DNA of 64,000 nt from Mytilus galloprovincialis (taxonomy: Eukaryota), in contig NC_134842.1 of assembly GCF_965363235.1 (NCBI RefSeq), positions 20,093,521-20,157,520 of the forward strand. Direction: 5' to 3'. A model generated the notes under the pieces. The model worked only from the letters and a program-made list of their open reading frames with translations. It was not told the DNA's origin and ran no database searches. Made by a program: the position numbers and the translations under genes. The first letter of the stretch is position 1. Every line of letters begins with the position of its first letter. This document shows positions 1-46,948 of the stretch, piece by piece.

Positions 1-1514
1 ACAAATCACAAAAGCTCAAAGGATTAAAAGGATTAGCATCAGATATGAGTATTCATGGTCCATGCATATCAAGCAAGCATGAGAACTATGATTTTGCAAG
101 CTGTATAAAATGTGATCAGTGGGTATCTCAAGCCCAACCATGGATCTCAAGATCACGTTTGATATGGCCTTCACCTGAACTTATTTCAAACATAACTTCA
201 TGCGGTACTTTATTTGTTCCAATCGGTAATAAGGGATCTACAAATGAGAATCTTCAGTGGCGAATATCATTTTCTGTTGCAGAGAAGATACTGATATATT
301 CTTTCAGTCATACCCAGCTACTATGCTATGCTTTGATAAAGATAGTATTGACAGAAATAGTGAACAGAGAGGAAGATATACAAGGTTTATTGTGTTCATA
401 CTTTCTGAAGACCCTGATGTTTTGGATGTCAGAAGAAATTGAAATATCAGTCTGGAGACCCGACAATATCATTCCCTGTTTTATGGCCTGTTTAAAAAGG
501 TTACTATACTGTATAGAATATTCAACGTTGTTACATTATTTCATTCCTGATAACAACTTGTTCTATTTAAGGTTTAACAGTAAACAGGAGAGCACATTAA
601 TCAACTTCCTAAAACAATCATACCAAAAAGGAATTGAAATTTTCTCATCATCTCAGACTTTACAGGATTACAGAAGATTTCCATGTGAAACTACAAGATC
701 AATGTGTGAAATAACTGTATTAATGCAAATAATTATAGAGAAGATACAGTCACCTTTTCCAAATACCTTACGCATATTGAACACTTTGCTGCATCATTGT
801 AAAACTGATTTATCCAAGGTTATCTTTCAACTGTCAACTGCAAGGGCATATCAAACAGTACCGTTTGGACTACCACATGTAAATAACCCAAGCAATAAGC
901 AGCAATACAAGCTCTACAAACGTGACATGAGCCAGTTGTTGGTTGGTGTACAGTCAGATGCAGTATCAGGATGGCTGCAATTGGCTTCTTTCTTCTATGG
1001 TCACAAAAACTATTTAACATCAACAGATATAATCGATTATACTTTGTCAAAATGTACAGATGAAGCAAGATTGTCAAAGATTTCACTGAAACAGACCAAG
1101 ACACCGAAGCTTATATCACTAGTTAAGAACATACCATCTCGATATTTCGTATTCCACAAGTTTAGATTAAATTCAGTTTTCCCAATGGAACTAAAGTGTC
1201 CTCATGCCTTCAATCCATTGGCCTCAATTAGTTCTCAACCATTTGCACATTTCCTCCGGTTTTTGTGTTGTTACCACCTCCATGACTTTGAATCATGTCA
1301 GTATTGTATAAACAAGTTATTAGAAACAGTTCGTAATTACATTCCATCAAGAGAACGGTATATAGATGTACATGCATATAATTTAATATTACTAGGAATA
1401 GCTTTTCAGATGTTAGGTGACAGAGATTCAGCAAGGAAATATTTTCATATGGCTGCGTATTATGATGAACATAACTTTACATGTGCTGCAATCAGATTGC
1501 ATCAGTTTTGCTGA
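1..1514 (+). CDS. Mab-21 domain / cGAS-like receptor (cGLR) family protein, copy 1. This is the C-terminal roughly 500 aa; the 5' part, presumably the NTase core, lies upstream of the window.
   Basis: The frame is open from window base 3 to the TGA at 1512-1514. The product contains 'LIWPSPE...FVPIGNKGSTNENLQWRISFSVAEKILI', which matches the cGAS/Mab-21 signature recalled from memory ('SWPASTQEGL...YLVPKHAKEG...ETWRLSFSHIEKEIL'). Near the start, 'NYDFASCIKC' resembles the segment around the third catalytic acidic residue ('VDITLALE' in cGAS, 'ITPAFKC' in MAB21L1). The whole copy is collinear with the paralogue at 30239-32907. Confidence 0.75.
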   Translation, partial: KSQKLKGLKGLASDMSIHGPCISSKHENYDFASCIKCDQWVSQAQPWISRSRLIWPSPELISNITSCGTLFVPIGNKGSTNENLQWRISFSVAEKILIYSFSHTQLLCYALIKIVLTEIVNREEDIQGLLCSYFLKTLMFWMSEEIEISVWRPDNIIPCFMACLKRLLYCIEYSTLLHYFIPDNNLFYLRFNSKQESTLINFLKQSYQKGIEIFSSSQTLQDYRRFPCETTRSMCEITVLMQIIIEKIQSPFPNTLRILNTLLHHCKTDLSKVIFQLSTARAYQTVPFGLPHVNNPSNKQQYKLYKRDMSQLLVGVQSDAVSGWLQLASFFYGHKNYLTSTDIIDYTLSKCTDEARLSKISLKQTKTPKLISLVKNIPSRYFVFHKFRLNSVFPMELKCPHAFNPLASISSQPFAHFLRFLCCYHLHDFESCQYCINKLLETVRNYIPSRERYIDVHAYNLILLGIAFQMLGDRDSARKYFHMAAYYDEHNFTCAAIRLHQFC

Positions 1515-24149: not shown

Positions 24150-25075
24150 AAAATGATGTGGTATGATTTCAAATGAAACTACTCTCCACTAGAGACCAAA
24201 CGATGCAGGTGTGGTATAATTGCGAATGAGACAACTCTACACTAAAGGCTAACCCATGTAGATATATAATGTAGTATGATTGCAAATGACACAACTCTCA
24301 ACCATAGACGTGCAAATGATGAAGATTTGGTCTGATTGCCAAAGAGCTCTACATTAGCGACCAAATAATGAAGATGATGTATGATTGCAAATGAGACAAC
24401 TCTCCATCAGAGGTCTCTCATAGAGATGAGGTATGATTACCTATGAGAAAACTCTCCCACAGGAAGCAAATGATATAGATGTGGTATAATTAACAATGAG
24501 ACAACTCTCACCAGGAACCAAATGATATAGATGTGCTATGATTACCAATTAGACAACTCTCACCAGGGACCAAATGATATAGATGTGGTATAATTACCAG
24601 TGAGACAACTCTCCGTCAGAGACCAAATGTAGAAGATGTAGTATTTTACTAATGAGACAAATCGCCATCAGAGACCAAATGGTGTACATATTGTATAATG
24701 ACCAGTTAGACAACATTCCACTTTAGACTAAATGATGAAGATGAGGCTTGATTACCTATGAAAAACTCTCCCCCCAGGGACCAAATGATATAGATGTGGT
24801 ATAATTACCAATAAGACAACTCTTACCAGGGACCAAATGATATAGATGTGGTATTATTACCAGTGAGACAACTCTCCATTAGAGACCAAATGAAGTAGAT
24901 GTAGTTAGTTACTAATGAGACAAATCTCCCAAAGAGACCAAATGGTGCAGATGTGGAATGATGGTCAGTGAGACAACTCTCCACTGTAGACTAAATGGTG
25001 TAGATGAAGTATGATTACCTATGAGAAAATTCTTTTCCAGTGTCCAAATGATGAAGACGGTTTAATTTGTATCAG
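24150..25075. repeat. 52-bp tandem array, about 17 copies, derived from the 5' head of a SINE family ('gatgtggtatgattaccaatgagacaactctccaccagagaccaaat').
   Basis: A 52-bp period is seen (24471 to 24523 to 24575). The same head motif occurs as a single copy at 45000-45045, 47965-48010, 48262-48300(-) and 63020-63060(-). Confidence 0.8.
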
Positions 25076-25221: not shown

Positions 25222-27146
25222 TGTTAGCGGCAAAAAGTGAAATTATACAATAAGCTTAAATCCTAGGCAACAAGCTAACGCCTAGGCATTAAGTTATTGC
25301 CTGAAATTTTCAGGCATTAAGCTTATTACCTGAAATCTTATGATGATTATTCATTCTATTGCCGAACATAATTTTAGGCAATAAGTGAAATCTGGAATGA
25401 ATGCTTATTTGGTGATTTATTCTTGATATAAAGGAGTTACTTAATTTATTTATTTCTTATATAATTTCTTATACAATTCAAAATTTGGTGACTATGTGGA
25501 ACGCATATATCCCATCGAATTGGAGATAAAGGATACTACAGATACAGTTAAGTCGGCTTCATATCTTGACTTAGATCTAGAAATTGACAATGAGGGTCGG
25601 TGGAAAACAAAACTTTACGACAAAAGAGATGATTTCAGCTTTCCAATTGTGAACTTTTCATTTCTAAGTAGCAACATTCCAGCAGCACCTGCATACGGAG
25701 TATATATCTCCCAATTGATACGATATTCCCGTGCTTGCATTTCCTATCATGATTTTCTTGATAGAGGGTTACTGCTCACAAGGAAGCTATTAAACCAAGA
25801 GTTCCAAATGGTGAAGTTGAAATCATCCCTACGTAAATTTTACGGACGCCATCATGAGTTGGTTGACTGTTATGGAATAACCGTTTCACAAATGATATCG
25901 GATATGTGTTTCACGCCGTAACTACAATCCCCTTCCCTTCCATGAATGTGACCTACCGAATTAGACTATTTACCGGATTTGTAATCACATAAGCAACACG
26001 ACAGGTGCCACATGTGGAGCAGGATCTGCTTACCCTTCCGGAGCACCTGAGATCACCCCTAGTTTTTGGTGGGGTTCGTGTTATTTTGTAGTTTTCTATG
26101 TTGTGTCATGTGTACTATTGTTTTTCTGTTTGTCTTTTTCATTTTTAGCCATGGCGTTGTCAGTTTGTTTTAGATTTATGAGTTTGACTGTCCCTTTGGT
26201 ATCTTTCGTCCCTCTTTTATATAACATGTGTAAATATACATTCATTTGCCAGATCTTCTAATTTAGTTATTTATGTAGTAATTAGACAAAATTAAAATGT
26301 GATTTTTTTTGCTTACACAATTTTTCAGGTTTTTTTTTTTATAGGATAAGTAAATTTTCTTTATTAACAGTTTCACAACTTGTAATAACAAAATTATTTG
26401 AACACAAATTTTTATCAAGTTTTCATATTTTTAGATTGTTATTTTGATATAGATAACATATCTTATTAGTGATTTTATTTCCAGTCCGTTGTGGAGTGAT
26501 GTGACACTTCCATTTCAGCTCCCTCAACGCATGAGTTTACTGATAACTTTTTGCAGTTAGTTTGTTCAATTCTAATATAAAACGTAGTTATATTTTTACG
26601 AATGTTTTGTTTCATAGAGTTTACCATGTACAAATTATTATAATTCAAAACTAATATTTATTTTCTAATAGTTAGTCGGTTTTTAAATTAAAGTTGTTTG
26701 CTAAATAAGATACAGTATTATTTTTTTTCATTTGCTATTTTTTTTTACGTCAATACGCGGCTATGACATCTAGCTACGATAATCCTTAGATAGCTTCAAT
26801 GTGCATGCTGAGACATGTCGTAAGTCGGTCCTAACTTTATCATAATTTCTGTCTAAGAATATCTTATAGGATCGATCTCGGGACAGTTTCGATAAACAGA
26901 CCCCAGTTCTTATAATGTTATTATTTTACAAATAAATTGTTATTTAAATGAATAAATGTCTTTTATTTACTCGCATTTATATTTTAGGCATTAAGCTTAA
27001 TGCCTGCACACATTTTTCAGGATTTAATCATAAATCCTAGGATTTATTACTAATGCCTATCATTTAGGCAATAGAGTTACTGCCTAGGCGTTAGCTTATT
27101 GCCTAGGATTTGAGCCTAATGCCTAATTTCACTTATTGCCGCTAAC
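25222..27146. mobile_element. Non-autonomous DNA-transposon-like element with ~70-110-bp terminal inverted repeats, flanked by (TA)n. It carries the LINE fragment 25483-26235 internally.
   Basis: The left end 'GTTAGCGGCAAAAAGTGAAATTATACAATAAGCTTAAATCCTAGGCAACAAGCTAACGCCTAGGCATTAAG...' (25222-) is the reverse complement of the right end '...CTTAATGCCTAGGCGTTAGCTTATTGCCTAGGATTTGAGCCTAATGCCTAATTTCACTTATTGCCGCTAAC' (-27146). Both sides are flanked by 'atatatatat'. Internal sub-repeats include 'ggcattaagcttaatgcc'. Confidence 0.6.
25483..26235 (+). mobile_element. 5'-truncated non-LTR retroelement copy from the same family as 2928-3640 (RT C-terminus plus 3' UTR).
   Basis: ORF 25496-25921 'RIYPIELEIKDT..YLDLDLEIDNEGRWKTKLYDKRDDFSFPIVNFSFLSSNIPAAPAYGVYISQLIRYSRAC...'. 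The 3' tail 25922-26235 is the reverse complement of 2928-3247. Confidence 0.8.
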
Positions 27147-27839
27147 ATATATATATAATTTCGTAATTTTGCCAAACTCTGCATATATGTGTTTTTAGAC
27201 AATTTGTTATTTGTTGAACATTTAAATTAAAGGTTCTCCTGTATTCACAAAATCCAGAAAAAAAATTGTTACATATGACCAAGAATGAATCCTTAGTAAA
27301 ATGCAAAATCTATGACTTTACATGTTAAAAATATTGACAGGCTTGACTGGTAATATCATGGCTTTAACATAAAGATGTTATTATAAGAAATAAATGCCTC
27401 TTTTAAAATTTAACAGGGTTGCGTTCTGGCTGCCTGTGTATATATCTCAAGTGTGAAATGCTTTTGTGCTTCATACAGATAGCTTTAGATAGCTCAGACT
27501 CGGGTGTTCATTGCATATGCCGAAATTGTTATTTTTTTTATTTTGAAACCTTACAAAAGGTTAATCAATTTTACAAATTTTTATATGAAGTATTGTTTTA
27601 TGCATACTAGCTGTAAGTGAATTTTTCAATTTGAAAGTACATATAATATCAAGGAATCTGCAATTCTTATATTAGTATTTTTGATTGTTGAATGTCCAGT
27701 AGCAATTATTTAATGCATATGTAGAACCACTAGTATCCAAAGGTTGAAAATAAGATGTTAAGGAGTGTAAACTTTTGAACCTTATTTCTACTTTAATGTC
27801 AATGTATACGTACTATTTATAATGACAACTTCAGTATGT

Positions 27840-29030
27840 ATACTAAAGAAATTTATCCTGTTGAACTTACTTTAAATAAAGCTAATACTAACAATAACCC
27901 CTGTACTTTCCTCGATCTGGATATCTATATTATTAACGGAAAGCCTAATACAAAAATGTATGATAAAGGAGATGATTTTTCATTTCCTATAGTTAACTAT
28001 CCATTTTAGAGGGTGACGTTCCCTTGTCACCATCTTATGGTGTTTATATATATCAACTTGTACGATTCGCTCGTGTACGTAGCACAGTATTAGATTTTAG
28101 CGATATAAATTATTGATATCACAAACTAGTTAAAACATTTACTAAATGTTATCATCGGTAGATGGAAATGATTCGTAAATATAACTCAACATGCAGACAT
28201 CTTATACGTTCAGGTATTTCACATCCAATCTTTTATGGTTATATTCTTTACAAAGCCAAACAATATCAGTATTAACCTCAAAAGCTAACAAAACCTTTAA
28301 ACAGACTTATAAAGAAGTAAAATAGTTACGATGCTGTTGTCAGGTCATTAAAGATAAAATATTTTAGTTTTAATATTGATTCACTTTTAGGGTCTTTGCA
28401 TCGGAATTAAACACATTTATTCTAAAACATGTTGTTGGCATGACACGGGTTATGTTCTTCTCATATATTTCATGATGGTATGATACTAAATCCCTAACAG
28501 GAGGGTTGTGTCTGATATTCATATGATGAAGACATAATCTTTCAATCAGTTTGTTTGAGGTCTGGAGCTGGCATGTCAGTAACTGCTAGTAGTCTGTTGT
28601 TATTTATGTATTATTATCATTTTGTCTATTTTCTTTTGTTTCATATTCTGACATCGGACTCGGTCTCCTCTGAGTTTTACTGTGCGTATTGTTGTGCGTT
28701 TGTTTTCTATATTGGCTAGGGTATAGGGGGTGAGTTGAGATCTCAAAAAACTCCGTCGCAATTTTGCGCCTGTCCCAAGTCAGGAGCATCTGGCCTTTGT
28801 TAGTCTGGTAAGATTTTTGATTTTAGTTTCTTGTGTAAAAATCGGAGGTTAGTATGCCGTTCATTATCACTAAACTTGTATGCATATTTGATTAGGGGCC
28901 AGCTGAAGGACGCCTCCGGGTGAGGGAGTTTCTAGCTACATTGAAGACCCATTAGTTGCCTTCGGTTGTTGTCTGCCCTATCGTCGGGTTGGTGTCGCTT
29001 TGACACATTCCCCATTTTTATTCTCAATTT
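27840..29030 (+). mobile_element. Degenerate copy of the same retroelement (RT C-terminus with stop codons, plus the 3' tail).
   Basis: 'EIYPVELTLNKANTNNNPCTFLDLDIYIINGKPNTKMYDKGDDFSFPIVNYPF*' with in-frame stops. The tail 28540-29000 matches 35880-36370. Confidence 0.55.
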
Positions 29031-30238
29031 TATCTAAAATATTTAGAAAATTAGCTAGATACAACCTTAAGATAGAGTGTGTAATGGTATGTGACTTTAT
29101 GCATATCTAATGCATTAACCAAAGTATGACCAGTGGAAGCAAGCAAAAAAATATTTCCAATGGGGGATAATGAAATAAATAATGTATCATTCAATCTATC
29201 ATACTATGTAAATATGTCATATTTAAATGAATAATTGAATAAATGTAAGATGTGAAACTGAAACTAAGTGATCTTTTTGTTTCAGTCAGGGGAAACATTT
29301 CTTAGTTCAAGCTTCTGTACAAGTAGACATCATTAAGTTGTTTTATAACAAAGTATGGAAAATGTCTATTATGATAAAATTTGTTATAAAAATTTCCTCA
29401 TTTAAAGAAATTATTAAAATAGAATTCTATGAAAAGTAGTACATTAAATACAAAATTTATGAAATAGCAAACAAGGAAAAGTTGTTGAAGAAGACTTTGA
29501 TTGTATCTTAGAATTAAGAGTTATTTCAGTTAACATAGTTAAAACCTTAAACTAAAACATCCTGCCTGATCAAGTTGATATGTCGATAGTAAAATATTTA
29601 AAAAAAACCAAACAGTCAACCTACAAAGCGAAAGGGTGTGGGTGGTTCCAAAAAAACATGTGCCTGCTTCATCAGAAATATACATAAGAAATTAATATCA
29701 AAAACAGAAAGACTACATTCGATAAGTTTTAAATAGAACATTGCTATCTCCAAACTTGATAACACAATTACCATCTCAGACAATATGTAAAATAAACTAT
29801 TTTGTTTATTTTACAGAAAATATTATTAATTTTACAGGAAATATTGTTTATTTTACAGGAAAGTCAAGAAAATCAACATTTATACTATTACAAGGATAAA
29901 CTAATATTTAGACTATGATACAGTACAAGAAACCAAACAACCAGTACAAGGATAAAGAACAATCGAGAAAGTTATACAGTACCAATTAGAAATCATTAAA
30001 AAAAATAGAGGAAAATATTGGACAATTTGACAGGAACATCTAGAAACCATTACAAGGACAGAGAGAATATCTAGACAAATATACAGTACCAATTAGAAAC
30101 CATTACAAGGATAAAGAATAGTAGGACAACTATATACAGGATCGTCAAACAGAAGCCATCAGAAGGAAGAAGAGAAAAAAATCTGGAAAGTAGTGCAGCA
30201 TCATTGTACTATTTATAATCCCTACAAAATTAAGAACA

Positions 30239-32907
30239 ATGTCTCACAGTAAAACGGAATGTTTATATTTTTATAAATATTTGTGTCAGAAAATTGGATC
30301 AGAGAAAGTTGTAAGCGCTAGACGATTGACATCTATAAGTAGATATTTTACAATGTCGGGCAGAATTATCCCTCATATAAGCAGTGGAAGTAAGACAGAA
30401 GGACTGGATCTTAAAGGTAGTGATACTGATATTATGTGTATTGATCCTGCATTTATAGTATATAAATCAGATAAAGATGTTGTCCAGAATAGAAGGATAG
30501 CATTAGTAATGGATACCGAGGACACACCACCGTGTTTTACACAACTACAACCATATACGAATGTAAATAACTTACCAAACGTCTATAAACAACAGCTACA
30601 ATACCACGGAAGAAAAATCCTACTTTCAAGTGAGCTTTACAAGTCACAAGCATTAAAAGAAATACAAGATATATCTCCAAAGACAAAAGGAAAACGCATA
30701 TTCATGTTTCATGCGTATCGGACATTGATGATAATTTTGATTAAGCAATGTGCCTTAAATGTGATTAGTGGTTATGGCAGGCACAACCATGGATATCTAG
30801 ACCACGTTTAATATGGCCTTCACCGGAAATTATTTCAAAAATAACTGCATGCGGTACTCTATTTGTTCCAATTGGTAACAAGGGATCTATACACGAGAAC
30901 CTTCAGTGGCGAATATCCTTTTCTGTCGCTGAGAAGATATTGATATATTCTTTCAGTCATACCCAGCTTCTATGCTATGCTTTGATAAAGAGATTATTGA
31001 AAGAAATAGAAAATGAAAGGGAAGACTTCAAAGATTTATTGTGTTCATACTTTTTGAAGACCCTTATGTTTTGGATGTCAGAAGAAAATGAACCATCAGT
31101 CTGGAGACCAGATAATATCATTCCATGTTTTATGGCCTGTTTAAAAAGGTTACTATACTGTATAGAGTATTCAACGTTATTACATTACTTCATTCCTGAT
31201 AACAACTTGTTCTATTTGAGGTTTAACAATAAACAAAGGAACACATTAATCAACTTCCTAAAACAATCATACCAAAAGGAAATTCAGGTTTTCTCATTAT
31301 CTCAGACTTTACATGATTACAGATGATTTTCATGTAAAACTACAAGATCAATGAGTGAAATAACTACAACAATAAAAACAATGACAGAGTACAAACACTC
31401 ACCTATTTAAAAAATCTTAGGCTTATTGATCACTTTGCTGAATCATTGTAAAACTGAATTATCCAGATGTATCTTTCAGATTTCTTTTGCAAGTGCATAT
31501 CAAATAATACCTTTTGCACTACCACAAATAAAAAAAAACAACCAATAAACAGCAATACAATTCTACAAACATGACCTCAGCCAGTTGTTGGTTGGTTTAC
31601 GGTCAGATTCAAGATCAGGGTGGCTGATATTGGCCTCTTTCTTCTACAGTTACCAAAAGTATTTAACATCAACAGATATAATCAATTACACTTTGTCAAA
31701 AGGTACAGATGAATCATCTTTATCAAAGATTACACTGAAACAGAAAAAGACACTGAAACTAATATCTCTACTACCAGCACCATATGTTTCATTTTACAGG
31801 ATGACATTTATTTCAGTCATCCCACTGGAACTAAAGTCTCCTCATGACTTTGGTATGGCGGTATTTATAAGTTCCATACCATTTGCACATTTCCTCCGTT
31901 TTCTGTGTTGTTACCATATACAGGACTTTGCATCAAGTAGGTATTGTATAAATAAATTGTCAAAGTCAACTTGTTCTATTTAAGATTTAACAATTAAAAG
32001 ATCCTAAAGAAAACATACCAAACAGGTATTCAGATTTTCTCAATTTCTCAGACTTTACAGGATTATAGAAGATTTACATGTGAAACTATAAGATCAGTGT
32101 GTGAACTAGCTATACAATAATGAAAATCATTGAAGAGAAGACAGAGTCACATTTTGTTAACAATTTACTACTCATAGTGAACATTTTAATGCATCATTGT
32201 AAAACTGACTTATCCAGAGTTATATTTAAACGGTCAGTTGCAAGGATATATCACATAAGGCCTATTGTTCTACTACATGTAAATAACCCAAACAATAAAC
32301 ACCATTACAAACTTTACAAACATGACTGCAGCAAGTTGTTGATTGGTGTACAGTCAGATGCAGGTGGCTGATATTGGCATCTTTCTTCTACAGTCACCAA
32401 AATTATGTAACATCAATTGATATAATCAATTATACTTTGTCAAAATGTACCGATGAATCATCTTTGTCAAAGATAACACTAAAACAGACGAATAAACTGA
32501 TATTCATATCACTATGTGAGACGCGTCAAACTTAATTTGTCTCATTAATGAAGTTTTTGATGAAATTAGTCATTCCAATGGAACTAAAGTCTCTTTATGA
32601 CTTTGGTATATTTGTAGTAATAAGTTCCATATCATATTCACATTTCCTACGTTTTCTGTGTTGTTACCATCTCCATGACTTCAAATCAAGTCGGTATTGT
32701 ATAAATATGTTATTAGAAACAGTAAGTGAATACAGTCAGTCGAGAGAACAAAAAGCATTTGAAAATGTATATAATTTAATTCTACTAGGAATAGCTTTAG
32801 AGATGTTAGGTGAGAGAGATTTAGCAAGAAAATATTTCCATATTGCTGCAGATAAAGATCCAGATAACTGTATATGTGCTGCATTCAGACTGTGTCAACA
32901 AAGCTGA
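30239..32907 (+). pseudogene. cGLR / Mab-21-domain nucleotidyltransferase paralogue, copy 2. The N-terminal NTase core is intact; the C-terminal half is disrupted.
   Basis: The N-terminal ORF 30239-30811 carries 'HISSGSKTEGLDLKGSDTDIMCI', the pol-beta NTase motif GS-x10-DxD with the same spacing as cGAS GS212/E225/D227. A nucleotide-level alignment to copy 1 shows three defects: a net +1 frameshift near 30720-30755 (CAG in copy 1 corresponds to TAG here at ~30753), a nonsense codon AGA to TGA at 31324, and further stops at 31407, 31536 and beyond. Segment ~31200-31975 is tandemly duplicated as ~31975-32560. The last ORF (32548-32907) still aligns to the C-terminus of copy 1 ('HFLRFLCCYHLHDF.S..YCIN.LLETV...NLILLGIA..MLG.RD.ARKYFH.AA'). 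Confidence 0.65.
31200..32560 (+). repeat. Internal tandem duplication, two diverged units of ~0.6-0.78 kb, inside cGLR copy 2.
   Basis: The copy-1-like stretch 'NNLFYLRFN...QTLQDYRRF.CET.RS.CE..' appears at 31200-31340 and again at 31975-32100. 'LVG.QSD...GWL.LASFFY...Y.TS.DII.YTLSK.TDESSLSKITLKQ' appears at 31585-31760 and again at 32330-32490. Confidence 0.6.
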
Positions 32908-34839
32908 AGCCTGAGCGAGGACAAAAACACAATCACTGTAAACACTAGACGTAGAATAGAGTGTAGCTCATTTTTTTATAACTTTTCTCAACTTTCAAAT
33001 TACACAAATATTTTGGTCAAAGACAAAAGTTTTTAAAGTAATTTCTATGCCATATATGAATTCACCCATTAAGTATTGGATTTTCACACATATACTTGTT
33101 ATTCACCTGTAATCATATTTAAAAAAGAAGGTATGCTAACAGCCATTATCTGGTCCCTGAAATTCTAAAAATATAAACAATAAACAAGTCTTTCAAAATC
33201 AATGAGCATGCTGTTATAATCAGAAAGCTGTAGTGATGAAAGGACAGTTATGATGTCACTTTGATGTCAGTAACATATTTGACCTAAAAAGGACCAATTG
33301 CACACAGATTTTGGATACAATAGATATGAGCCAAGGTCTTACCAATAAAAATATAGTTGACACACATTAACATCTTTGTAAAATACATCTAGTAGCAAAA
33401 TATCTGTTATGGTAAAGCCTTAGTTAATATAAAAAATAAATGAAATTTCAAAATGAGGCTCTATTTGCAATTTTTGCAACTTAATTTTGAAGCACAAATA
33501 TAAATGTGTATGTCAAAATTCTTAATATCAATACTGATGTTTGACAGATTAAAGTTTTACAAAAGTTAAAGAGAATATTTTTTTTGGTAGAGTTTTAATA
33601 TTTCTTGATTTTCGATTTGAAGGGGTAAAAAAAGTGACCATATATCATTCCTCCTCCTTTCACATTGTTTTAGATAATAATTATCTAATTTTGTCATAAT
33701 GAAATAACCATGTACCTTTAGTAAATGTCATTTAGTTTTTAAGGTGGTACACAACTCTACATGGATATAACTCTGTAAAAAGCAGCTAAACATTTTAATC
33801 CCGTTCTATTGTAAAAAAATTATTTAGCTTGTCTATGATCAAAAATAGTGTTTGTCAAACTGATATAAATCCAAAGAATTTTTTTCAATTAAGTCTGTAG
33901 TTCAAAGTAAATATTTTGTAAATTTTTTTTATTTTTTTTTATTAAAATCAAACCAGCAAAATTAATTTGAGTCAAGGTGTTTGGTACCACCCTAAAGTCA
34001 ATAAATTGTTTAACTTTACAGCATTTATAATTATATGCTTATAATGATGTACATTGTTGTATAGTTTTAGAGTCAATAAATAATTTCTATACACAGTATG
34101 TTCAATATGCCTTTAATAACTGCAATATATTAACTACTGAATAAGGAAGTACATGTAATAGTAAATAGATGTATTCTGCGACTAGTTTAACATAGTAGTC
34201 TCATGTCACGGTGTTAAAGTGAAGTTCATGATAGCATGAAATATAGCAGACAGATTATCACAATTAAGGATGTTTGCTACTACTCTCGTTTATAATAAAA
34301 TGCCTCTGAAGAGACTGTGTTATATTGATAGTTATATAAACAACAGAACCATTAAATGTGCTTGTAAGCACTGAACATAAAGATTGCGTTAATTTATCAG
34401 TTTGAAGTAAAATTAAATATTGCATTATCCATACATCATTGGCTGTAGTTGATGCAGTTAAAATTCTGGACAACAGGAGATAACTCTAATCTTTAAAGAT
34501 GACTTTAACAATGACATCATTTATATCTTTAGAACAGATATTAGATTTACGCACCTTGTTAAAAGTTATTTTCTTGACAAGTGTAACATCGTTTTGTGAC
34601 TTGAATATTTGAGCATATATTACATTGATTCATTTCTAGATAAGTTCATGGCCATGGATATGATGTTTAAAATGTTATGATTAATGCACTGTATTTTGTG
34701 TATTTAAAAGGTAGTCATTACCCTTTGAAGATTTAGATATCAGTCAGTAACATAGTTTTTTTTATTGCGTTTCATGCATTCTTTACCCCAAAAATCAGGA
34801 AAAAAAAGGTCTGTCATTTTTTAGTAGCAATAAACAAAA

Positions 34840-36370
34840 AAACTATGTTAATTGGACATGCTTTGATACTATATATGCCCTCGAATTTTTACTAGATAAC
34901 ATTTTTGTTCGCTTTGGGGATTCCGTATATCGTCAGATTATCGGAATTCCAATGGGGACTAACTGTGCACCACTTATTGCGGACCTCTTTTTGTATTGTT
35001 ATGAGTTACAATTTATGACAAAAATAAGCAAAGAACCATCAAAACAACATCTGATAAACAAATTTAATAATACTTTTAGATATTTGGATGATATTTTGGC
35101 TCTCAATAATGACGACTTCAGTATGTATATTAATGAAATTTATCCTGCTGAACTTACTTTAAATAAAGCTAATACTAACAATGACCACTGCCCTTTCCTC
35201 GATCTTGATATCTATATCACTATTGGAAAGCTGAATACTCAAATTTACGATAAAAGGGATGATTTTTCATTTCCTATCGTTAATTATCCGTTTTTAGATG
35301 GTGACGTTCCCTTGTCACCATCTTACGGTGTTTATATATCTCAACTTGTACGATTCGCTCGTGTATGTAACAATGTTTTAGATTTTAACGAGAGAAATTT
35401 ATGTATTACTGAAAAATTATTACACCAGGGTTTTCGATATCACAAACTAGTCAAAACATTTACTAAATTTTATCATCGGTATAAAGACATCATTCGTAAA
35501 TATAGCTCAACATGCAGACTTCTTATACGTTCAGGTATTTCACATCCATTTTTTATGGAAATATTCTTTATAAAGCACAAAGGTGTCAGTATTCACCTCA
35601 GAAACTTACAAAACCTTTGAATAGACTTATTAAGAAGGGATATAATAACGATACTGTTGTCAAGTCATTAAAGATTGCATATTTTGGCGTTAATATTGAG
35701 TCACTGATAAGGTCTTTGCGTCGGAACTAAACACATTTATTCTAAAAACAGTTGTTGGCATGACACGGGTAATGTTCTTCTCATATATGTTATGATGGTA
35801 TGATACTAAACCCCTAACGGGAAGGATTGTGCCTGATGTTCATATGATGAAATCATAATCTTTCAGTCAGTTTAATGGAAGTCTGGAGCTGGCATGTCAG
35901 TTAACTGCTAGTAGTCTGTTGTTATTTATGAATTATTGTCATTTTGTTTATTTTCTTTGGTTACATCTTCTGACATCAGACTCGGACTTCTCTTGAACTG
36001 AATTTTAATGTGCGTATTGTTATGCGTTTACTTTTCTACATTGGTTAGAGGTATGGGGGAGGGTTGAGATCTCACAAACATGTTTAACCCCGCCGCATTT
36101 TTGCGCCTGTCCCAAGTCAGGAGCCTCTGGCCTTTGTTAGTCTTGTATTATTTTAATTTTAGTTTCTTGTGTACAATTTGGAAATTAGTATGGCGTTCAT
36201 TATCACTGAACTAGTATATATTTGTTTAGGGGCCTGCTGAAGGACGCCTCCGTGTGCAGGAATTTCTCGCTACATTGAAGACCTGTTGGTGACCTTCTGC
36301 TGTTGTTTTTTTATTTGGTCGGGTTGTTGTCTCTTTGACACATTCCCCATTTCCATTCTCAATTTTATGT
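34840..36370 (+). mobile_element. Retroelement copy with the longest surviving RT ORF (34952-35620), followed by the family's 3' tail (35880-36370).
   Basis: RT motifs 'FVRFGDSVYRQIIGIPMGTNCAPLIADLFLYCYE' and 'FRYLDDILALNN' (YxDD-type motif C), then '...YDKRDDFSFPIVNYPFLDGDVPLSPSYGVYISQLVRFARVC'. The 3' tail 'tggagctggcatgtcag...cctgtcccaagtcaggagcctctggcctttgttagtc...' recurs at 28540-29000, 4640-5150(-) and 46470-46745(-). Confidence 0.7.
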
Positions 36371-36539
36371 CATCCTCTTTTTATAAGATATATAAAGCCA
36401 TTGACAATTTAACAGGAATTGATTATCACCAAAATTTTCATACATTTAACATTGGTACCTTTTTTTCTGTCAAAATCTATGAAATAGAAACAAGAGTTTC
36501 ATAAGATTTTCTGAAATGGCTTTTTGGGATATGATTGCT

Positions 36540-39500
36540 TTCAAGCAATCTGTAGACTTTTACCGTTGACTCATGCTACATTCCCTCACGTCATTCGTTT
36601 TATTCTAAACATTCAGCAATATCTCTGATTCTTATGATTGTCTTGCTTTAAAAGGTAAAAACAAGCAAAAGGATTGAACATAAACAACTTTCCTGTAATG
36701 TTCTTCTCATAATCTTCATGTGTGATATTTCCCTTGACTTATATGCGTGTTTTTAACAACACGGAAAATCAGAATTAAACAGTATTTATATTTAGTGTTT
36801 TTATAAATTTAGAAACACGTCAGAGGGAATTCCCCAGTTTTGATAAATGCGAGAGTTCTCTAAATTCCGATAATTCTATTTCTGTCATAAGAACTGAAGT
36901 TGAGTATTTCTATACTTTACCGTTATGAAACTGATATTTGATGTACTCTCATAAATAAATGGAAAACCATCCCTCATATCATTTAATAAACGTTCTTGTT
37001 CCAAATCGCAAGTCGCGGTTTGTTTATGTATTAATGCGCATGCGTATAGTTTTCCTGATTTCAAGGGGTATCAGATTGAGTGGTTGCTCTGGATTCCCCG
37101 CTTCATTGATTAATTTGAAACTCATGGGATTCTTCCTATGTCTGTCTGCTATTGAGGATTATTGTTGTTGCATTATTTTAAATCATATGCATAACTTAAA
37201 TTAAAATAAATGGAGTCTTCCATATTATCGTTTCGAGTTGTCTCCCTTCCGGAAGTATTTTCCGTCAAAATCGAAATACTATATACGACTCGACAAGAAA
37301 AATTAACTCGTTAGATGCCGATAAACGTCGTATTATATTAAGAACGATCTCAATTTAAACAGAGGAGTGTGTACGGAAAGGAGTCATGTCCTCTGACCTA
37401 AAGGAACTTCAATATTTAAAGAGTTAGAAATAGGATTCCTCCTAGAATTACGGTGATAAGTTAACTCGTACCATGGTAGCTTGTACCACTGGGAAGTCGT
37501 ACCATTCAGAACTCGAACAACTGTAAACTCGAACCATTAAAAATATATTAAAAATATGATGTTTTATGGGTTTTTGTTTGTAAACCTAATAAAAATAAAG
37601 TTGAATTACTTGAATTTTATACTGGATTTTAATGAAAACTTAGACAAAAATAAAGAATGTTTTTAAGCATTATTGTTTAAACTGATCTTTCAAACTAGAA
37701 CTGAATCCAGAAGAAAGTTAAAACATTGCTTTAACTGTATATATATTCAATTTAAGTTATAGTGCCTAACAAGATTTTGTGAGGGAATTCGATGTTTGCT
37801 ACACCACTGTTCATTTCAACGCACTTTTTGACAATACTACTATACCAATCAAAATGAAAATTTTTGCAGTGTTTTGAGAAATGATATTACTTTGTAGTCA
37901 CGTATTGTTTGTGAAACAGTTTATGTTTTAAAAAGACGAATTTTCTGTATAAAGTCAATAAATATGTGGACTTTTGAAGCCCAAACTTTGTATTGCCTTA
38001 CATACATAAATGAAAGATCCCAAAACTGTATCAACACAATACGTCATGTTTATGAAATGATGGCAAAACTTTTGGTTGACAAATGTTTACTCGTTATTGC
38101 AAAAAACTGAACTTTTAATAGCTTACATTTTCTCCCTACCCAGTTTACCCCTATTACTTATGATAATGTGGACCGGTCATTGTTATTGAACATAACGCGA
38201 TTTGATTGGATTAAGTTATTATTAGTTTACCTTAAAACTGTTTTTGCTTTTCATTCTCGACTATTGATTAAATTAGAACGTGCATGAATGTGACAATAAC
38301 TAAAATGACCTTCAAACTGGACACTGGATGAGTCCATGTTCTGTTTTATCAATGAAAGTATAGGTATGAAAGGTAAGAATTGCTAATTCTCCTATTTTCA
38401 CAAAATTTCCTAAATACACAGTAGATGGATCATTTTTCGATAGCCAATAGTGGAGAAAACAGACAAAGTTTACAAATAAGACATTTTATTCCAATCAACA
38501 AGTCATTTTTCGAAGGGAAATGCCGAAATAAATTTTACGCACGGCTATGCCAGGTAAAATTATTATTTATTTTACAAAAAACAAAAATTTTCAGTCTCAA
38601 AGGAACATTCTAATTACAATTAATCTCAAATTAAAGAAGTCATCAAATAAAGTCAAAATATGTCCGATCTACCTATTTTTGGACAAAAAAAGTCAATACG
38701 ATCGTTTTAAAGTCAATTTCGTCTACCTCACAAAATCTTGTTAGGCACTATAATTAAAGCTGTAATCCATGTTCACAAATTGAATGCTATGTTTACAATT
38801 TTGTTGAAAGCCATGTGCTTTTTTGGCGGGGAAATTCCGGACCCCTTAACAGGAATCAGTTACATTTCATTGTTATTTATAGACAGTAAAAATCATTTTG
38901 ACTAACTGCTAAGATTTATTCATGAAAAATTAATATTTTCTTCGGGTGAAACTGTTAATACTTTAATAATCTACATCTGCCACAGTATTTTCTATCGAAT
39001 AGACAAGGAACCTTAGCTACAAATTGGTCATTGTACTTTCAAATTATATACATTTTACAGACTTAATAGGTATTGAGTAAAAGTAACGTATATCATGTAT
39101 ATTCATTATTTAACACCATTTAAATGCATTTAAATAAGTTGGTACGAGTTAGCAGTGGTACAAGTTTGCATTGGTACAAGGTTTTTTTAGTGGTACGAGT
39201 TTACAATGGTACGGGATAACTATAATTCAATAAAACACAATAAGTACATGGCTCATACACTTGTAACCAGGATTGGCTATTTTTAAAGTTGCGTGACTAT
39301 TCAGATTATTACATTTTGCATGTGCAGTTGAATTAGTTTTGAAAATAATACTATCCAGCTGTATCAGGGTTGCCAAAAATGCTTGAGACTCACGCAAATG
39401 CGTGAGACTCCCACATGTTCATGCTTTTTTGCGGCAGTATCCTTGGATCTATTTTTTTCCTCTTTGATCTTTTCAATTTTGGCCAAATCTCACGCATTTG

Positions 39501-39590
39501 CTAAATGAAAATTTGGCAGAACTGCTATACATGTGTCAATGAAAACTATGGTAATCGTATCCCTCAGAGCATTCTGCTCTTTGATTAAAC
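36540..39590. mobile_element. ~3-kb insertion into Rep-B copy II. It contains a nested MITE.
   Basis: It is absent between the homologous junction sequences in copy III (51085-51090) and copy I. Internal 'ggtac(g/c)agtt'-type subterminal inverted motifs occur at 37440-37530 and 39130-39230. Confidence 0.5.
37757..38753. mobile_element. MITE-like element (~1 kb) with perfect 28-bp terminal inverted repeats.
   Basis: TIR-L 'TTATAGTGCCTAACAAGATTTTGTGAGG' (37757-37784) is the exact reverse complement of TIR-R at 38726-38753. The flanks read 'tttaag' and 'ttaaag', an imperfect TTAA-like target duplication. Confidence 0.65.
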
Positions 39591-40419
39591 TATATGTATC
39601 ATTTATGAAAAGAAAAGTATGAATCTGTGTGCAACATTTGGAATACGGCTTGTATGATTAATATCGATTAAGATGGATGGGTGGCTGGTTAATATCAAGT
39701 GGAAAATTAAATGCATATTCCGGACAGAAGCATGATAATGAGATATGAATTTAAATCCTGTTGTGTAATTGACTCACATGCTGAGCGAACTATTTACCTT
39801 ATACAAGGTAACAGTCTGCAGGAAGAAATAACACCATAACCGGACTTTTCTCTCAATCCTCAAAACGCGGCATGTGTAGTGGAGAAGTTGTATAAATACA
39901 CATGAACTGCCGCACTTGAAATAAGCATCCTACCACGGGTCCATGGAGGAGCTAGCATGCCAATGAAAGTTATACATTGTTATACAGACTGCAGAATCGA
40001 CCTTTATAGGGTTTACACATGTGTTTGTACTTATTCAAATAATCTATGCAGATACATTGGTTTCTCTAATTCGTATTCCATTTATTCCTATCCTGACCTA
40101 CGTTGTAGAAAGAACACATCATTTTGCAAGTCGAAAAGAATTATTAAGATTGCTTGCATATCGTCTAAAATCATTAGAGAAACAGATTCCACCACTAAAT
40201 CTCGCCCGTGTGATATGATACTCTCGACAGTAAAATTTTAAATATTTTTTCTTGATATTTTGGATGTGTAAAATGACCTGGTAACCCACAAAACACAAAA
40301 ACGTTCAGGAAATGTTCCAGGAACGTTTCTGTTTCGTTGTGAGAACGTTGTGATTTAACATTGTAGGAACGTAAAAGTGTGGACTACCAGTTACGTTGTA
40401 AGAACGTTATGATATAACG

Positions 40420-40605
40420 TTATGGAAAACCAACCTGGAACCTAAATAGAACCTTGTGTAACCAAACTGGAACCTTGATAGAACCTTGTATAACCAATCT
40501 GGAACCTTTATAGAACCTTGTGTAACCAATCAGAAACCTTTATAGAACCTTGTGTAACCAATCTGGAACCTAAATATAATCATTTGTTACCAATCTGAAA
40601 CCCAA
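40420..40605. repeat. ~35-bp tandem repeat, about 5 copies ('ggaacctt(g/t)atagaaccttgtgtaaccaatct').
   Basis: Direct inspection of the sequence. Confidence 0.65.
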
Positions 40606-40974
40606 ATTAATCCTAGTCCCAGACAACATTTGTATGTTCACAACAATGGCCCAACGTATCTACATTCATTGGCTCAACGTTGGTTTTCTCGCCATCTTCC
40701 TGAACATGCATGAACATTTTGCAACTGGACGTTTAAGCAAACAACAATCTTTATCTCCAGGAATTGTACCCATATTTGAATGAATTAAATCAACACATCC
40801 ATGTTACCTATTTTTCTTAAATAATGAAAACAAAGATATGATACCAATACATAATTTATTTTAGCTAGACAAGGAGCAAATTCTTAAAAGTTAAATGTTA
40901 TGTACATGTATCTACACGTTGCAACATCAGATCTAGAATGAAAATTATAAAATATATTCATGATGTTTCATTTC

Positions 40975-41415
40975 TGTAAATGTTATTCACTTCATCAGGT
41001 TCATACAGTTATTTCCTAGTTCTGTAATTCACGTCTGACATCAGGTTCATACAGTTATTTCTTAATCTATAATTTCACTTCATGTTCATACAATCACATC
41101 CTAGTTCTGTAATTCGCTTCATCAGATTCATACAATTATTTCATTGTTCTGTAATTTCACTTCATCAGGTTCATACAGTTATTTCCTAGTTATAAATTCA
41201 CTTCATCAGGTTCATACAGTTATTTCCTAGTTCTGTAATTTCACTTCATTAGGTTCATACAGTTATTTCCTAGTTCTGTAATTTCACTTCATTCGGTTCA
41301 TACAATTATTTCCTAGTTTTGTAATTCACTTCATCATGTTCATACACTTACTTCCTAGTTCTGTTATTTCACTTCATTAGGTTTATACAGTTATTTCCTA
41401 GTTTTGTAATCTAAC
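40975..41415. repeat. 43-bp tandem repeat, about 10 copies (unit approximately GGTTCATACAGTTATTTCCTAGTTCTGTAATTTCACTTCATCA).
   Basis: Direct inspection of the sequence. Confidence 0.85.
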
Positions 41416-44400: not shown

Positions 44401-44999
44401 TTTCAGAGTAGAAAATTTTTGTAAGATTACAAAAGATTACAAAATTTGTTAAAAATTTACTAAAAAGGACCTTAATAACTCCTTAAGGGGTAAATAGACC
44501 ATTTTGGTCAAGTTGAATTATTTGTAGATCTTATTAGACATTATTGCTGCTAACAGTTTATCTCTATCTTTAATAATATTACAAATACATTGTTATTGTA
44601 ATAACCAAAACTGCAAAATTTCCCTACAATTACCAATTCAGGGGCAGCATCCCAACAAAGGATTGTCTGATTTTTCCAAAATTTTTAGAGCAGATATATC
44701 TTGACCTGATCAACAATTTTGCACCTGGCAAATTTGCTCTAAATGATTTGGTTTCAGAGATATAAGCCATAATCTACATTTTACCCCTATGTTCTATTTT
44801 TAGCCATAGCAGCTGTCTTGGTTGGTTGGCTGGGTTATTGGACACATTTTCTAAACTAGATACCCAAATGATGAAATATGACACAGTAGTTTCAGAGAGG
44901 ATTTCTGTAAACGCCTAACGCTGCCAGAGGCTGGACGCCAAGTGATGAGAAAAGCGCACTTGGCCCTTTGAGCAAGTTGAGCTAAAAAGATGATGTGGT

Positions 45000-45295
45000 A
45001 TAATTGCGAATGTGACATCTTTCCACAAGTGTGATCAAATGACACAGAAATTAACAACTATAAGTTACAATACGGCCTACAACAATAAGCAAAGCCCATA
45101 CTGCATAGTCAGCTATAATTGGCTAAAAAATGACAAATGTAAAACAATTCAAACGAGAAAACGGCCTAATTTATGTAGAAAAAATGAACAAAAAATCAAT
45201 TATGTAACACACCAACAAACAACAACCACTGAATTACAGGCTCCTGACTTGGGACATGCACATACATAAATAATGTGGCGAGGTTACACATGTAA
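45000..45295 (+). mobile_element. SINE-like element: the 'gatgtggtataattgcgaatg' head plus 'ggctcctgacttgggaca' tail.
   Basis: A near-identical element is at 47960-48245. The head is the same as the unit of the 52-bp array. Confidence 0.5.
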
Positions 45296-46745: not shown

Positions 46746-46948
46746 GCTGGGTCAACACCTAAACTGGGTTTTAATATATATACTTTTAAGAGCTAATATT
46801 GTTTGCTTTAATTCTATATGAAAATGTGCAGAGGACTCACATAACAGGATAGGCTGAACTGAATGTTTGTCCAAACCTACAGTGGACTATTTTCAAATAG
46901 AAAATTTTACAAATATAAAACACAAGAAACCTGAAGTAGATAGTAGGT

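What the first reader, a model, noticed from the sequence alone, without database searches (positions are those of the whole stretch)
30239..30811. cGAS-like nucleotidyltransferase core with an intact GS-x10-DxD catalytic motif
'SGSKTEGLDLKGSDTDIMCI' has the h[QT]GS...[DE]h[DE]h architecture and the spacing of cGAS/OAS-class NTases. The downstream WP and 'WRISFSVAEKIL' motifs (30812-30960 in copy 2; 150-300 in copy 1) follow cGAS so closely (WPASTQEG...ETWRLSFSHIEKEIL) that family membership is secure. These are candidate innate-immune sensors that make cyclic-nucleotide second messengers. The ligand specificity of mollusc and cnidarian cGLRs is largely uncharacterised.
Basis: partly seen in the sequence, partly recalled or inferred. 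Interest (0 to 1): 0.65.

Follow-up and report, generated by a model that had tools for sequence, protein, structure and literature searches.

The report
Dead mussel cGAS-like receptor gene copy
The flagged reading frame is the front end of a broken, non-functional duplicate of a mussel cGAS-like immune-sensor gene, one of hundreds of such genes already known in mussels, so it is ordinary.

Summary
The ORF at 30239-30811 (+) is real and contains SGSKTEGLDLKGSDTDIMCI (GS-x10-DxD). It is homologous from its first ATG to about 640-aa, intronless Mytilus proteins with Mab-21 and Mab-21_C domains, some named 'cyclic GMP-AMP synthase-like receptor 2'. In 62 homologues the GS, both Asp residues and a third Asp (D167) are essentially invariant. 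An AlphaFold model of a repaired protein matches mouse cGAS, Cv-cGLR1 and Sp-cGLR1 (Foldseek TM 0.70). Assigning it to the cGAS-like receptor (cGLR) family is therefore correct.

The flagged copy is a pseudogene. An 11-bp insertion near 30687-30697 shifts the frame, so the last 38 codons of the ORF are junk. The third catalytic Asp codon (30739-30741) is out of frame with the first two and is followed directly by TAA (30742), then TAG (30766). Three more stops follow, invariant G156 and P157 are lost, and a rearranged partial duplicate (31941-32898) carries further frameshifts and stops.

Copy 1 (3-1511) is open and looks intact, but its GS/DxD part lies outside the window. The two copies belong to a tandem segmental duplication of about 20 kb. 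The mussel cGLR radiation (218 genes in M. galloprovincialis) and cGLR-TPR fusions are already published. Interest is low.

The parts
30239..30694 (+). Copy 2, N-lobe of the cGLR nucleotidyltransferase core (codons 1-152), still in frame from the ancestral start codon
   Evidence: tblastn P0003 aa 1-152 at 67% identity and P0002 aa 1-141 at 66%. 81% nt identity to the M. edulis gene from its ATG.
30383..30442 (+). SGSKTEGLDLKGSDTDIMCI: the GS loop (G50-S51) and the DxD metal-binding pair (D62, D64)
   Evidence: Read directly. In one search, G50, D62 and D64 are in 89 of 89 homologues and S51 in 88 of 89. In the model, strand 46-49 is followed by a loop and then strand 63-68. HMMER pairs these residues with mouse cGAS TGS...EFDVMF.
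30687..30697 (+). 11-bp insertion relative to copy 1, which shifts the reading frame (+2)
   Evidence: DNA alignment A1. Homology switches from frame 2 to frame 1 between 30694 and 30700.
30695..30811 (+). Out-of-frame tail of the flagged ORF (38 codons plus stop), with no homology to the family
   Evidence: the family-homologous reading here is in the other frame.
30700..31959 (+). Copy 2 remainder in frame 1: rest of the NTase core, the Mab-21_C helical lobe and part of the TPR-like domain. In-frame stops at 30742 (TAA), 30766 (TAG), 31324 (TGA), 31408 (TAA) and 31546 (TAA). The third catalytic Asp codon is at 30739-30741. G156V and P157S substitutions.
   Evidence: tblastn against copy 1, 69% identity over 423 aa with stops shown. 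Stop list. Lost invariant residues. Pfam Mab-21_C 3.8e-18 on 30790-31323.
31941..32898 (+). Rearranged partial duplicate of the gene's 3' half (aa 176-501), split over three frames with further stops
   Evidence: tblastn pieces in frames +3, +2 and +1 with internal stops. blastn 31203-31954 against 31967-32707 at 75% identity.
3..1514 (+). Copy 1: open 503-codon 3' part of an apparently intact paralogue, running from just before HGPC and the third Asp, through Mab-21_C and the TPR-like domain, to the stop at 1512-1514. Its 5' end, with GS/DxD, lies outside the window.
   Evidence: Pfam Mab-21_C 7e-15 and Mab-21 8.7e-7. 71% identity to P0002 aa 136-636. Only 1 of the highly conserved positions is changed.
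32899..34181 (+). 3' flank of copy 2, paralogous to the 3' flank of copy 1 (1515-3750). This shows the copies arose by segmental duplication.
   Evidence: blastn 554-1595/31967-32988, 2130-2943/33198-34039 and 3615-3750/34043-34181, with colinear blocks continuing to about 20413/49958.

Best explanation
The flagged ORF is the 5' remnant of a pseudogenised paralogue ('copy 2', about 30239-32898) of a mussel-lineage cGAS-like receptor (cGLR) gene.

The parent family encodes intronless proteins of about 640 aa with two parts. The first is a cGAS/Mab-21-type nucleotidyltransferase cage: an N-lobe carrying GS and DxD, a third Asp on a later strand, and a Mab-21_C helical lobe. The second is a C-terminal TPR-like helical-repeat domain of about 290 aa.

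By inference from characterised cGLRs, intact members would bind two NTPs with two metal ions held by D62, D64 and D167, and would make a cyclic or linear oligonucleotide signal for STING-type receptors after an activating ligand binds. The TPR-like domain probably serves as a ligand- or partner-binding module.

Copy 2 arose with copy 1 by a tandem segmental duplication of about 20 kb and then decayed. It acquired an 11-bp insertion, five stop codons, loss of invariant G156 and P157, and a rearranged 3' half. It now encodes at most a 190-aa fragment that lacks the third catalytic Asp and the whole C-lobe, so it cannot act as a nucleotidyltransferase.

Shown here: homology, fold, motif conservation in the family, the lesions and the duplication. 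Inferred only: enzymatic activity and immune role of the intact paralogues, and the role of the TPR-like domain.
For: Homology: 475 hits, and the 120 listed are from Mytilus spp. or unnamed sequence-archive records (none names another genus).

Intronless gene: the M. edulis gene is one uninterrupted 1914-nt ORF, colinear with copy 2 from the ATG at 81% nt identity.

Family conservation: G50, E54, G55, S61, D62, D64, M66, G156, P157, C158, D167, W177, W184 and R187 are invariant in the 63-sequence alignment.

Domains: Pfam Mab-21_C in 63 of 63 members and Mab-21 in 59 of 63.

Solved structures: the profile hits Sp-cGLR1 at 1.4e-18 and cGAS at about 1e-15. hhalign against human cGAS gives 97-98% probability and pairs D167 with the cGAS SVDIT Asp.

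Model: AlphaFold pLDDT 84.9, pTM 0.82. The top Foldseek hits are mouse cGAS, Cv-cGLR1 and Sp-cGLR1, with target TM 0.70 over about 385 columns.

Lesions: 11-bp insertion; stops at 30742, 30766, 31324, 31408 and 31546; 7 of 90 highly conserved positions lost in copy 2 against 1 in copy 1; internal duplicate with frameshifts.

Duplication: colinear blocks 1-20413 against 30239-49958.

Literature: 218 cGLRs in M. galloprovincialis and 119 in M. coruscus, and cGLR-TPR fusions are described (PMC9980059).
Against: - The N-lobe, which is the flagged interval itself, has no significant sequence match to Pfam Mab-21 or to any PDB chain. Its assignment rests on contiguity with the C-lobe in intact paralogues, the motif, and the predicted fold.
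A forced global hhalign misregistered this stretch at low confidence.
- No member of this clade has been assayed, so activity is inferred.
- dN/dS between the copies is 0.24 in the Mab-21 part. Most of that divergence therefore accrued under constraint, and inactivation is relatively recent or the signal comes mainly from copy 1.
- No expression data are available, and assembly error cannot be formally excluded.
Confidence: 0.88

Rival explanations
1. Copy 2 is a functional cGLR gene. The apparent lesions would be bypassed by splicing, programmed frameshifting or stop-codon read-through.
For: The first 152 codons are open and retain GS and DxD. dN/dS in the Mab-21 part is 0.24.
Against: Homology on the two sides of the frameshift abuts within a few nucleotides (30694 and 30691-30700), which leaves no room for an intron, and the family CDS is intronless. 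Two stops fall within 30 codons of the frameshift, one of them directly after the third Asp. G156 and P157, invariant in 62 of 62 homologues, are replaced. Three more stops and a scrambled 3' half follow.
Confidence: 0.03
2. The lesions are assembly or sequencing artefacts, or belong to one haplotype only, and the animal carries an intact allele.
For: Mussel genomes are highly heterozygous with extensive presence/absence variation (my own background knowledge, not tested here). The locus lies in repeat-rich DNA next to a 10-kb satellite.
Against: All five stops are base substitutions, not homopolymer indels. TTT to TAA needs two changes. The copy is about 18% diverged from copy 1 and carries many non-conservative changes at conserved sites. 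The rearranged 3' duplicate is itself diverged (75%), so it is old rather than a recent mis-join.
Confidence: 0.05
3. The 190-aa ORF is expressed as a truncated N-lobe protein with a new role, such as a decoy or regulator of intact cGLRs.
For: The ORF keeps its ancestral ATG, and ORFs this long do not arise by chance in this DNA.
Against: There is no evidence of expression. A Pol-beta-type N-lobe without its C-lobe is unlikely to fold. The 38-residue frameshifted tail is unconserved. No protein with this exact sequence is on record.
Confidence: 0.03
4. The whole family consists of non-enzymatic Mab21L-like proteins, so even the intact paralogues are not second-messenger synthases.
For: Pfam Mab-21 and Mab-21_C are shared with the non-catalytic MAB21L1/2 proteins. 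The residue before GS is Ser rather than Gln or Thr, and the spacing to the third Asp (91-103) exceeds the published X50-90.
Against: GS, D62, D64 and D167 are invariant or nearly so across 62-89 paralogues that are otherwise only 35-70% identical. That pattern is what an active site under selection would show. According to Li et al., Mab21L1/2/3 lack a predicted functional active site. The PDB profile scores cGLR and cGAS far above MAB21L1 (1e-18 against 0.012).
Confidence: 0.12

Closest known systems
Bivalve and cnidarian cGAS-like receptors (cGLRs) of Li et al. 2023 (PMC9980059), e.g. Cv-cGLR1 (PDB 8gjw) and Sp-cGLR1 (PDB 8gjy)
   Same: Same Mab-21/cGAS cage fold (Foldseek probability 1.00, target TM 0.64-0.70). 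Best PDB sequence hit (8gjy, 1.4e-18). GS, DxD and third-Asp triad conserved in the family. Belongs to a lineage-specific radiation in a bivalve. TPR-fused cGLRs are a described architecture.
   Different: Only 16-21% identity to the solved cGLRs. The residue before GS is Ser. The spacing between DhDh and hDh is 91-103 rather than 50-90. The N-lobe is not recognised by Pfam Mab-21. There is a 290-aa TPR-like C-terminal domain. The flagged copy is a pseudogene.
Vertebrate cGAS (e.g. human cGAS, PDB 5v8o; mouse cGAS, 4o6a)
   Same: Overall fold. WRxSFSxxEK, the (S/C)SY..KT helix and the YFIP..NLF motifs align. The third Asp pairs with the Asp of cGAS SVDIT.
   Different: No zinc-thumb insertion: the cGAS segment HGKSKTCCENKEEKCCRKDC aligns to a gap. 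No disordered basic N-terminus. The family core pI has a median of 7.5, against 9.1 for the cGAS catalytic domain. It is not an orthologue.
MAB21L1/MAB21L2 (PDB 5eog/5eom) and MB21D2 (7lt1)
   Same: Shared Pfam Mab-21 and Mab-21_C domains and the same fold (ranks 25 and 48).
   Different: Much weaker sequence relationship (E=0.012 for MAB21L1 and 1.9e-5 for MB21D2). Mab21L proteins lack a predicted functional active site, whereas this family keeps it invariant.
Annotated Mytilus proteins such as XP_071139011.1 'cyclic GMP-AMP synthase-like receptor 2' (P0011) and the M. edulis gene encoding P0003
   Same: Same length, same two-domain architecture, intronless CDS and the same motifs.
   Different: Those are intact ORFs. 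The flagged copy is disrupted. No database protein is closer than about 71%.

Membership tests
cGLR (criteria of Li et al. 2023, PMC9980059) | Active-site motif h[QT]GS [X8-20] [DE]h[DE]h [X50-90] h[DE]h in one reading frame | tested here: not met
   Copy 2 has I-S-S-G-S, then x10, then D-T-D-I. The third Asp codon (30739-30741) lies in a different frame after an 11-bp insertion and is followed immediately by TAA. In intact family members the three acidic residues and GS are invariant, but the residue before GS is Ser and the second spacing is 91-103, slightly outside X50-90.
cGLR (criteria of Li et al. 2023) | Sequence homology across both the NTase core and the C-terminal helix bundle | tested here: met
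   Pfam Mab-21 (profile positions 120-196) and Mab-21_C in copy 1, in copy 2 (conceptual translation) and in 59-63 of 63 homologues. The PDB profile hits Sp-cGLR1 at 1.4e-18 and cGAS at 1e-15. The N-lobe itself is below sequence-detection thresholds.
cGLR (criteria of Li et al. 2023) | Predicted structural homology to known cGLR/CD-NTase enzymes (AlphaFold model) | tested here: met
   Model of the repaired chimera (copy 2 aa 1-153 plus copy 1): pLDDT 84.9, pTM 0.82. Foldseek top hits are 4o6a, 8gjw and 8gjy, at E about 1e-10, target TM 0.64-0.70 and about 385 aligned columns. This applies to the ancestral or repaired protein, not to the product of copy 2 as it now stands.
cGLR | GS and DxD superimpose on the cGAS catalytic residues in three dimensions | tested here: inconclusive
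Indirect support: the order of strand, GS loop and DxD strand in the model, and the HMMER pairing of sGskgEGLdlkgSDlDvm with mouse cGAS TGSYYEHVKISApNEFDVMF (a sub-threshold segment). A forced global hhalign put this stretch in a different, low-confidence register. The third Asp pairing is consistent.
cGLR | Uninterrupted open reading frame encoding the whole catalytic domain | tested here: not met
   Copy 2 has a frameshift, 5 stops in 30700-31959, and further frameshifts and stops in 31941-32898. Copy 1 is open over the 503 codons visible, but its 5' end is outside the window.
cGLR | Ligand-activated synthesis of a nucleotide second messenger that signals to STING | not testable with these tools
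   This needs biochemistry. No member of this Mytilus clade was found to have been assayed in the literature searched.
Pfam Mab-21 NTase domain (PF03281) | Score above the gathering threshold (24.1 bits) | tested here: not met
   The flagged ORF alone has no hit at E<=1. Copy 2's downstream frame alone scores 19.5 bits, below the cut-off. Copy 1 scores 29.6 bits and the repaired chimera 30.2 bits, both above it.
Vertebrate-type cGAS (orthologue) | Zinc-thumb insertion H(X5)CC(X6)C in the C-lobe | tested here: not met
   The cGAS zinc-thumb segment aligns to a gap in the family.
TPR-fused cGLR architecture | C-terminal tetratricopeptide-like helical repeat domain | tested here: met

The most novel reading that the evidence does not exclude
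The most novel reading not excluded concerns the intact relatives of this pseudogene, including copy 1. They may form a distinct mussel cGLR clade. Its N-lobe is too divergent for Pfam Mab-21. Its active-site spacing falls outside the published cGLR motif. Its fast-evolving TPR-like domain (dN/dS about 0.85) may gate the enzyme in response to a ligand that is not a nucleic acid, possibly yielding a new nucleotide signal. For the flagged locus itself, the only novel reading is that the 190-aa N-lobe fragment is expressed as a regulator.
Probability: 0.1. Interest if true: 0.55.

Novelty: new member of a known kind. Interest (0 to 1): 0.15.

Why it matters
As it stands this matters little. It is one decayed duplicate in a gene family already reported to have hundreds of members in mussels.

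It does give a clean local example of birth-and-death evolution in an immune-receptor radiation: a tandem segmental duplication in which one copy stays open and the other decays.

It also carries two practical warnings for cGLR censuses. A motif scan of an ORF fragment would miscount this pseudogene as a receptor with an intact active site. And a strict motif regex (X50-90) or the Pfam Mab-21 profile may under-detect this clade's N-lobe.

The intact cGLR-TPR paralogues remain untested biochemically and would be reasonable targets for discovering their ligand and product.

Tried and rejected
- Pfam on the flagged ORF alone gave no Mab-21 hit.
- phmmer of the N-lobe against PDB sequences gave only a chance hit to an endoglucanase at E=1.2.
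- Exact-sequence look-ups of the 190-aa ORF and of the 489-aa ATG-initiated ORF of copy 1 found nothing on record, so the source assembly and species could not be identified.
- Local hhalign against human cGAS aligned only the C-lobe. The forced global alignment recovered the third Asp pairing but misregistered the GS region at low confidence.
- The AFDB Foldseek library was unavailable, so the taxonomic spread of the two-domain architecture was not tested.
- Accessions of family members (VDI14514, VDI11583, VDI23866, CAC5423065, VDH99095, VDI50423) were not found in the stored supplements of Li et al. One supplementary table is truncated, so whether this exact clade is among their 218 M. galloprovincialis cGLRs is unresolved.
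- Literature searches for Mytilus cGLR or pseudogene papers found nothing specific beyond Li et al..
- The TE-like ORFs have no Pfam hit, and there are no tRNAs in the window.
- Rescue by an intron, by read-through or as an assembly artefact was considered and rejected (see the rival explanations).
- An OAS relationship was considered. The only support is a sub-threshold hit to OAS2 at E=0.39.
Full report
**Observation**

The window is AT-rich (about 32% GC) metazoan-like DNA. An ATG-to-stop ORF of 190 codons lies at 30239-30811 on the + strand. It reads MSHSKTECLYFYKYLCQKIGSEKVV...ISSGSKTEGLDLKGSDTDIMCI..., so the quoted peptide and the GS-x10-DxD spacing are real (nt 30383-30442).

The ORF is not a chance product. 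Outside the satellite only three stop-to-stop segments of 190 codons or more exist in six frames, and none arose in 50 shuffles.

**What the locus is**

A tblastn with the long ORF at the window's left edge ('copy 1', 3-1511, 503 codons, stop at 1512-1514) shows how 'copy 2' is built.
- The flagged ORF comes first, in one frame.
- From 30700 to 31959 there is a 423-aa match (69% identity) in a different frame.
- From 31941 to 32898 there is a second, partial copy of residues 176-501, split over three frames.

A DNA alignment places an 11-bp insertion in copy 2 at about 30687-30697. The last 38 codons of the flagged ORF (30695-30811) are therefore a frameshifted read-through. The homologous reading continues in the other frame as IHVSCVSDIDDNFD*AMCLKCD*WLWQAQPWISRPRLIWPSPE...

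In-frame stops sit at 30742 (TAA), 30766 (TAG), 31324 (TGA), 31408 (TAA) and 31546 (TAA). The 3' partial duplicate carries at least two further frameshifts and four stops.

**Relatives**

I built a repaired chimera from copy 2 residues 1-153 and copy 1 from IHGPC onward. It finds 475 proteins, and the 120 listed are from Mytilus species or unnamed sequence-archive records, none naming another genus. Most are 630-660 aa, and full-length hits are 64-70% identical at best. They carry precomputed Mab-21 and Mab-21_C domains, and a few are named 'cyclic GMP-AMP synthase-like receptor 2'.

The Met1 of the flagged ORF aligns with Met1 of the intact proteins (P0003: MYHSKTESLYFYKYLCQKIGSEE...). The M. 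edulis gene for P0003 is a single uninterrupted 1914-nt ORF. It is colinear with copy 2 from the ATG at 81% nt identity. The family CDS is therefore intronless, and splicing cannot rescue copy 2.

A transposon-like repeat near that M. edulis gene is 90-92% identical to copies in the window. This is consistent with a Mytilus or closely related source. The exact species could not be determined.

**Is it a cGAS-like nucleotidyltransferase?**

At family level, yes.
- In alignments of 62-89 full-length homologues that are otherwise only 35-70% identical, G50, E54, G55, S61, D62, D64, M66, S130, G156, P157, C158, D167, W177, W184, R187 and W192 are invariant. S51 is present in 88 of 89.
- Pfam finds Mab-21_C in 63 of 63 members and Mab-21 in 59 of 63.
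- A family profile hits Sp-cGLR1 (8gjy, 1.4e-18), many cGAS chains (about 1e-15 to 1e-11), Cv-cGLR1 (8gjw, 1.4e-7), MB21D2 (1.9e-5) and MAB21L1 (0.012).
- hhalign against human cGAS gives 97-98% probability. The alignment pairs WRISFSVAEK with WRLSFSHIEK. In global mode it also pairs HGPC...YDFA with GSPAV...SVDIT, so D167 matches the third catalytic Asp of cGAS.
- The cGAS zinc-thumb segment aligns to a gap, so this is not a vertebrate-type cGAS.
- An AlphaFold model of the chimera is confident (pLDDT 84.9, pTM 0.82). Its best PDB matches are mouse cGAS, Cv-cGLR1 and Sp-cGLR1, with Foldseek probability 1.00, target TM 0.64-0.70 and about 385 aligned columns.
- In the model, GS follows strand 46-49, DxD lies on strand 63-68 and D167 on strand 166-174. 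This is the expected Pol-beta-type arrangement.

**Caveats on the flagged interval**

The N-lobe, which is the flagged interval, is not detectable by sequence. Pfam Mab-21 matches only profile positions 120-196 in every member tested. The ORF alone has no Mab-21 hit, and phmmer against the PDB finds nothing.

Its identification rests on three things: contiguity with the C-lobe in intact paralogues, the invariant motif, and the predicted fold. I could not compute a residue-level superposition because model coordinates are not exposed. HMMER's sub-threshold segment pairs the GS and DxD with mouse cGAS TGS...EFDVMF, whereas a forced global hhalign misregisters that stretch at low confidence.

The family also departs slightly from the published cGLR motif, h[QT]GS [X8-20] [DE]h[DE]h [X50-90] h[DE]h (quoted). 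The residue before GS is Ser, and the second spacing is 91-103 residues.

**The flagged copy is dead**

- The frameshift separates GS/DxD from the third Asp.
- The third Asp codon (30739-30741) is followed immediately by TAA. This is a two-step change from the TTT in copy 1.
- Q176 has become TAG.
- The invariant G156-P157 of the HGPC motif are now V-S.
- In total, 7 of 90 positions that are at least 95% conserved are lost in copy 2, against 1 in the visible part of copy 1.
- dN/dS between the two copies is 0.24 over the Mab-21 part and 0.85 over the C-terminal part, with dS about 0.33. Most of the divergence therefore accumulated under constraint, and decay came later. The C-terminal domain evolves fast in any case.

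**Origin**

A self-comparison shows colinear paralogous blocks from 1-20413 to 30239-49958. These include the 3' flanks of both genes. Examples are 2130-2943 against 33198-34039, and 19051-19791 against 48728-49621. The two copies thus belong to a tandem segmental duplication of about 20 kb.

Within copy 2, 31203-31954 and 31967-32707 are 75% identical. This points to an old internal duplication or a fusion with the 3' half of another paralogue.

**C-terminal domain**

**Mechanism (inferred)**

By analogy with cGAS and the cGLRs assayed by Li et al., intact members would use D62, D64 and D167 to hold two metal ions, and would join two NTPs into a cyclic dinucleotide that signals through STING. 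The TPR-like domain is the likely ligand- or partner-binding regulator. The family core pI (median 7.5) is lower than that of the cGAS catalytic domain (9.1). This gives no particular support for nucleic-acid sensing. Copy 2 can do none of this.

**Comparison with what is known**

Li et al. (PMC9980059) report more than 3,000 cGLRs and extreme radiations in bivalves. Their table lists 218 cGLRs and 9 STINGs for M. galloprovincialis, and 119 and 8 for M. coruscus. They also describe TPR-fused cGLRs. Whether this exact clade is among those counts could not be verified, because the stored accession table is truncated.

**Verdict**

The sequence observation is real and the family call is right. 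The locus is an ordinary pseudogene within a known, massively expanded family. Interest is low (0.15). It is classed as a new member of a known kind, because no database protein is closer than about 71% and the flagged copy itself is non-functional.

Noticed in passing
window 9017-19020: A 10-kb satellite of a 36-bp unit (AAATGTAGTCTGAAGAGAGTGGCTGGCTTTGATACT): about 277 copies, 88% matches, GC skew about +0.48. It generates spurious ORFs of up to 660 aa on both strands.
   Followed up: partly
window 48651 (+), against the satellite at 9017-19020: A single 36-bp unit (7 or fewer mismatches) sits at the position in duplication unit 2 that is paralogous to the satellite in unit 1. Either the array was amplified from a single seed after the segmental duplication, or it collapsed in unit 2.
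   Followed up: partly
window 1-20413 and 30239-49958: A tandem segmental duplication of about 20 kb, with colinear blocks at 68-87% identity interrupted by insertions. It carries both cGLR copies.
   Followed up: yes
window 2947-3614 (+) and 25555-26218 (-); also 34952-35620; L001 14900-15370: A transposon-like repeat, 95% identical between two inverted copies. Its ORFs of 133-222 aa share the motif YDKRDDFSFPIVN...YGVYISQL(I/V)R(Y/F)(S/A)R(A/V)C. There is no Pfam hit. A copy 90-92% identical lies 3 kb downstream of the M. edulis homologue.
   Followed up: partly
family alignment A2 (homologues of window 30239-30694): In this Mytilus clade the DhDh to hDh spacing is 91-103 residues and the residue before GS is Ser. 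Both fall outside the published cGLR motif (X50-90, [QT]GS). Pfam Mab-21 never covers the N-lobe. Motif- or Pfam-based censuses may therefore miss or mis-score this clade.
   Followed up: partly
window 639-1511 (copy 1 C-terminal domain) against 31240-31959: The TPR-like C-terminal domain has dN/dS about 0.85 between the two copies, against 0.24 for the Mab-21 part. This could reflect fast evolution of a putative ligand-binding module, or relaxed constraint in the pseudogene.
   Followed up: no
window 4634-5153, 28526-29032, 35847-36367, 46475-46734; 27819-29033 against 35106-36368: Several further dispersed repeat families at 83-90% identity, in both orientations. They are presumably transposon fragments.
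   Followed up: no
window 24264-25057, 40986-41410, 50417-50709, 58704-60224: Additional tandem arrays with periods of 52/105/263, 43/85/127, 31 and 87/174 bp.
   Followed up: no
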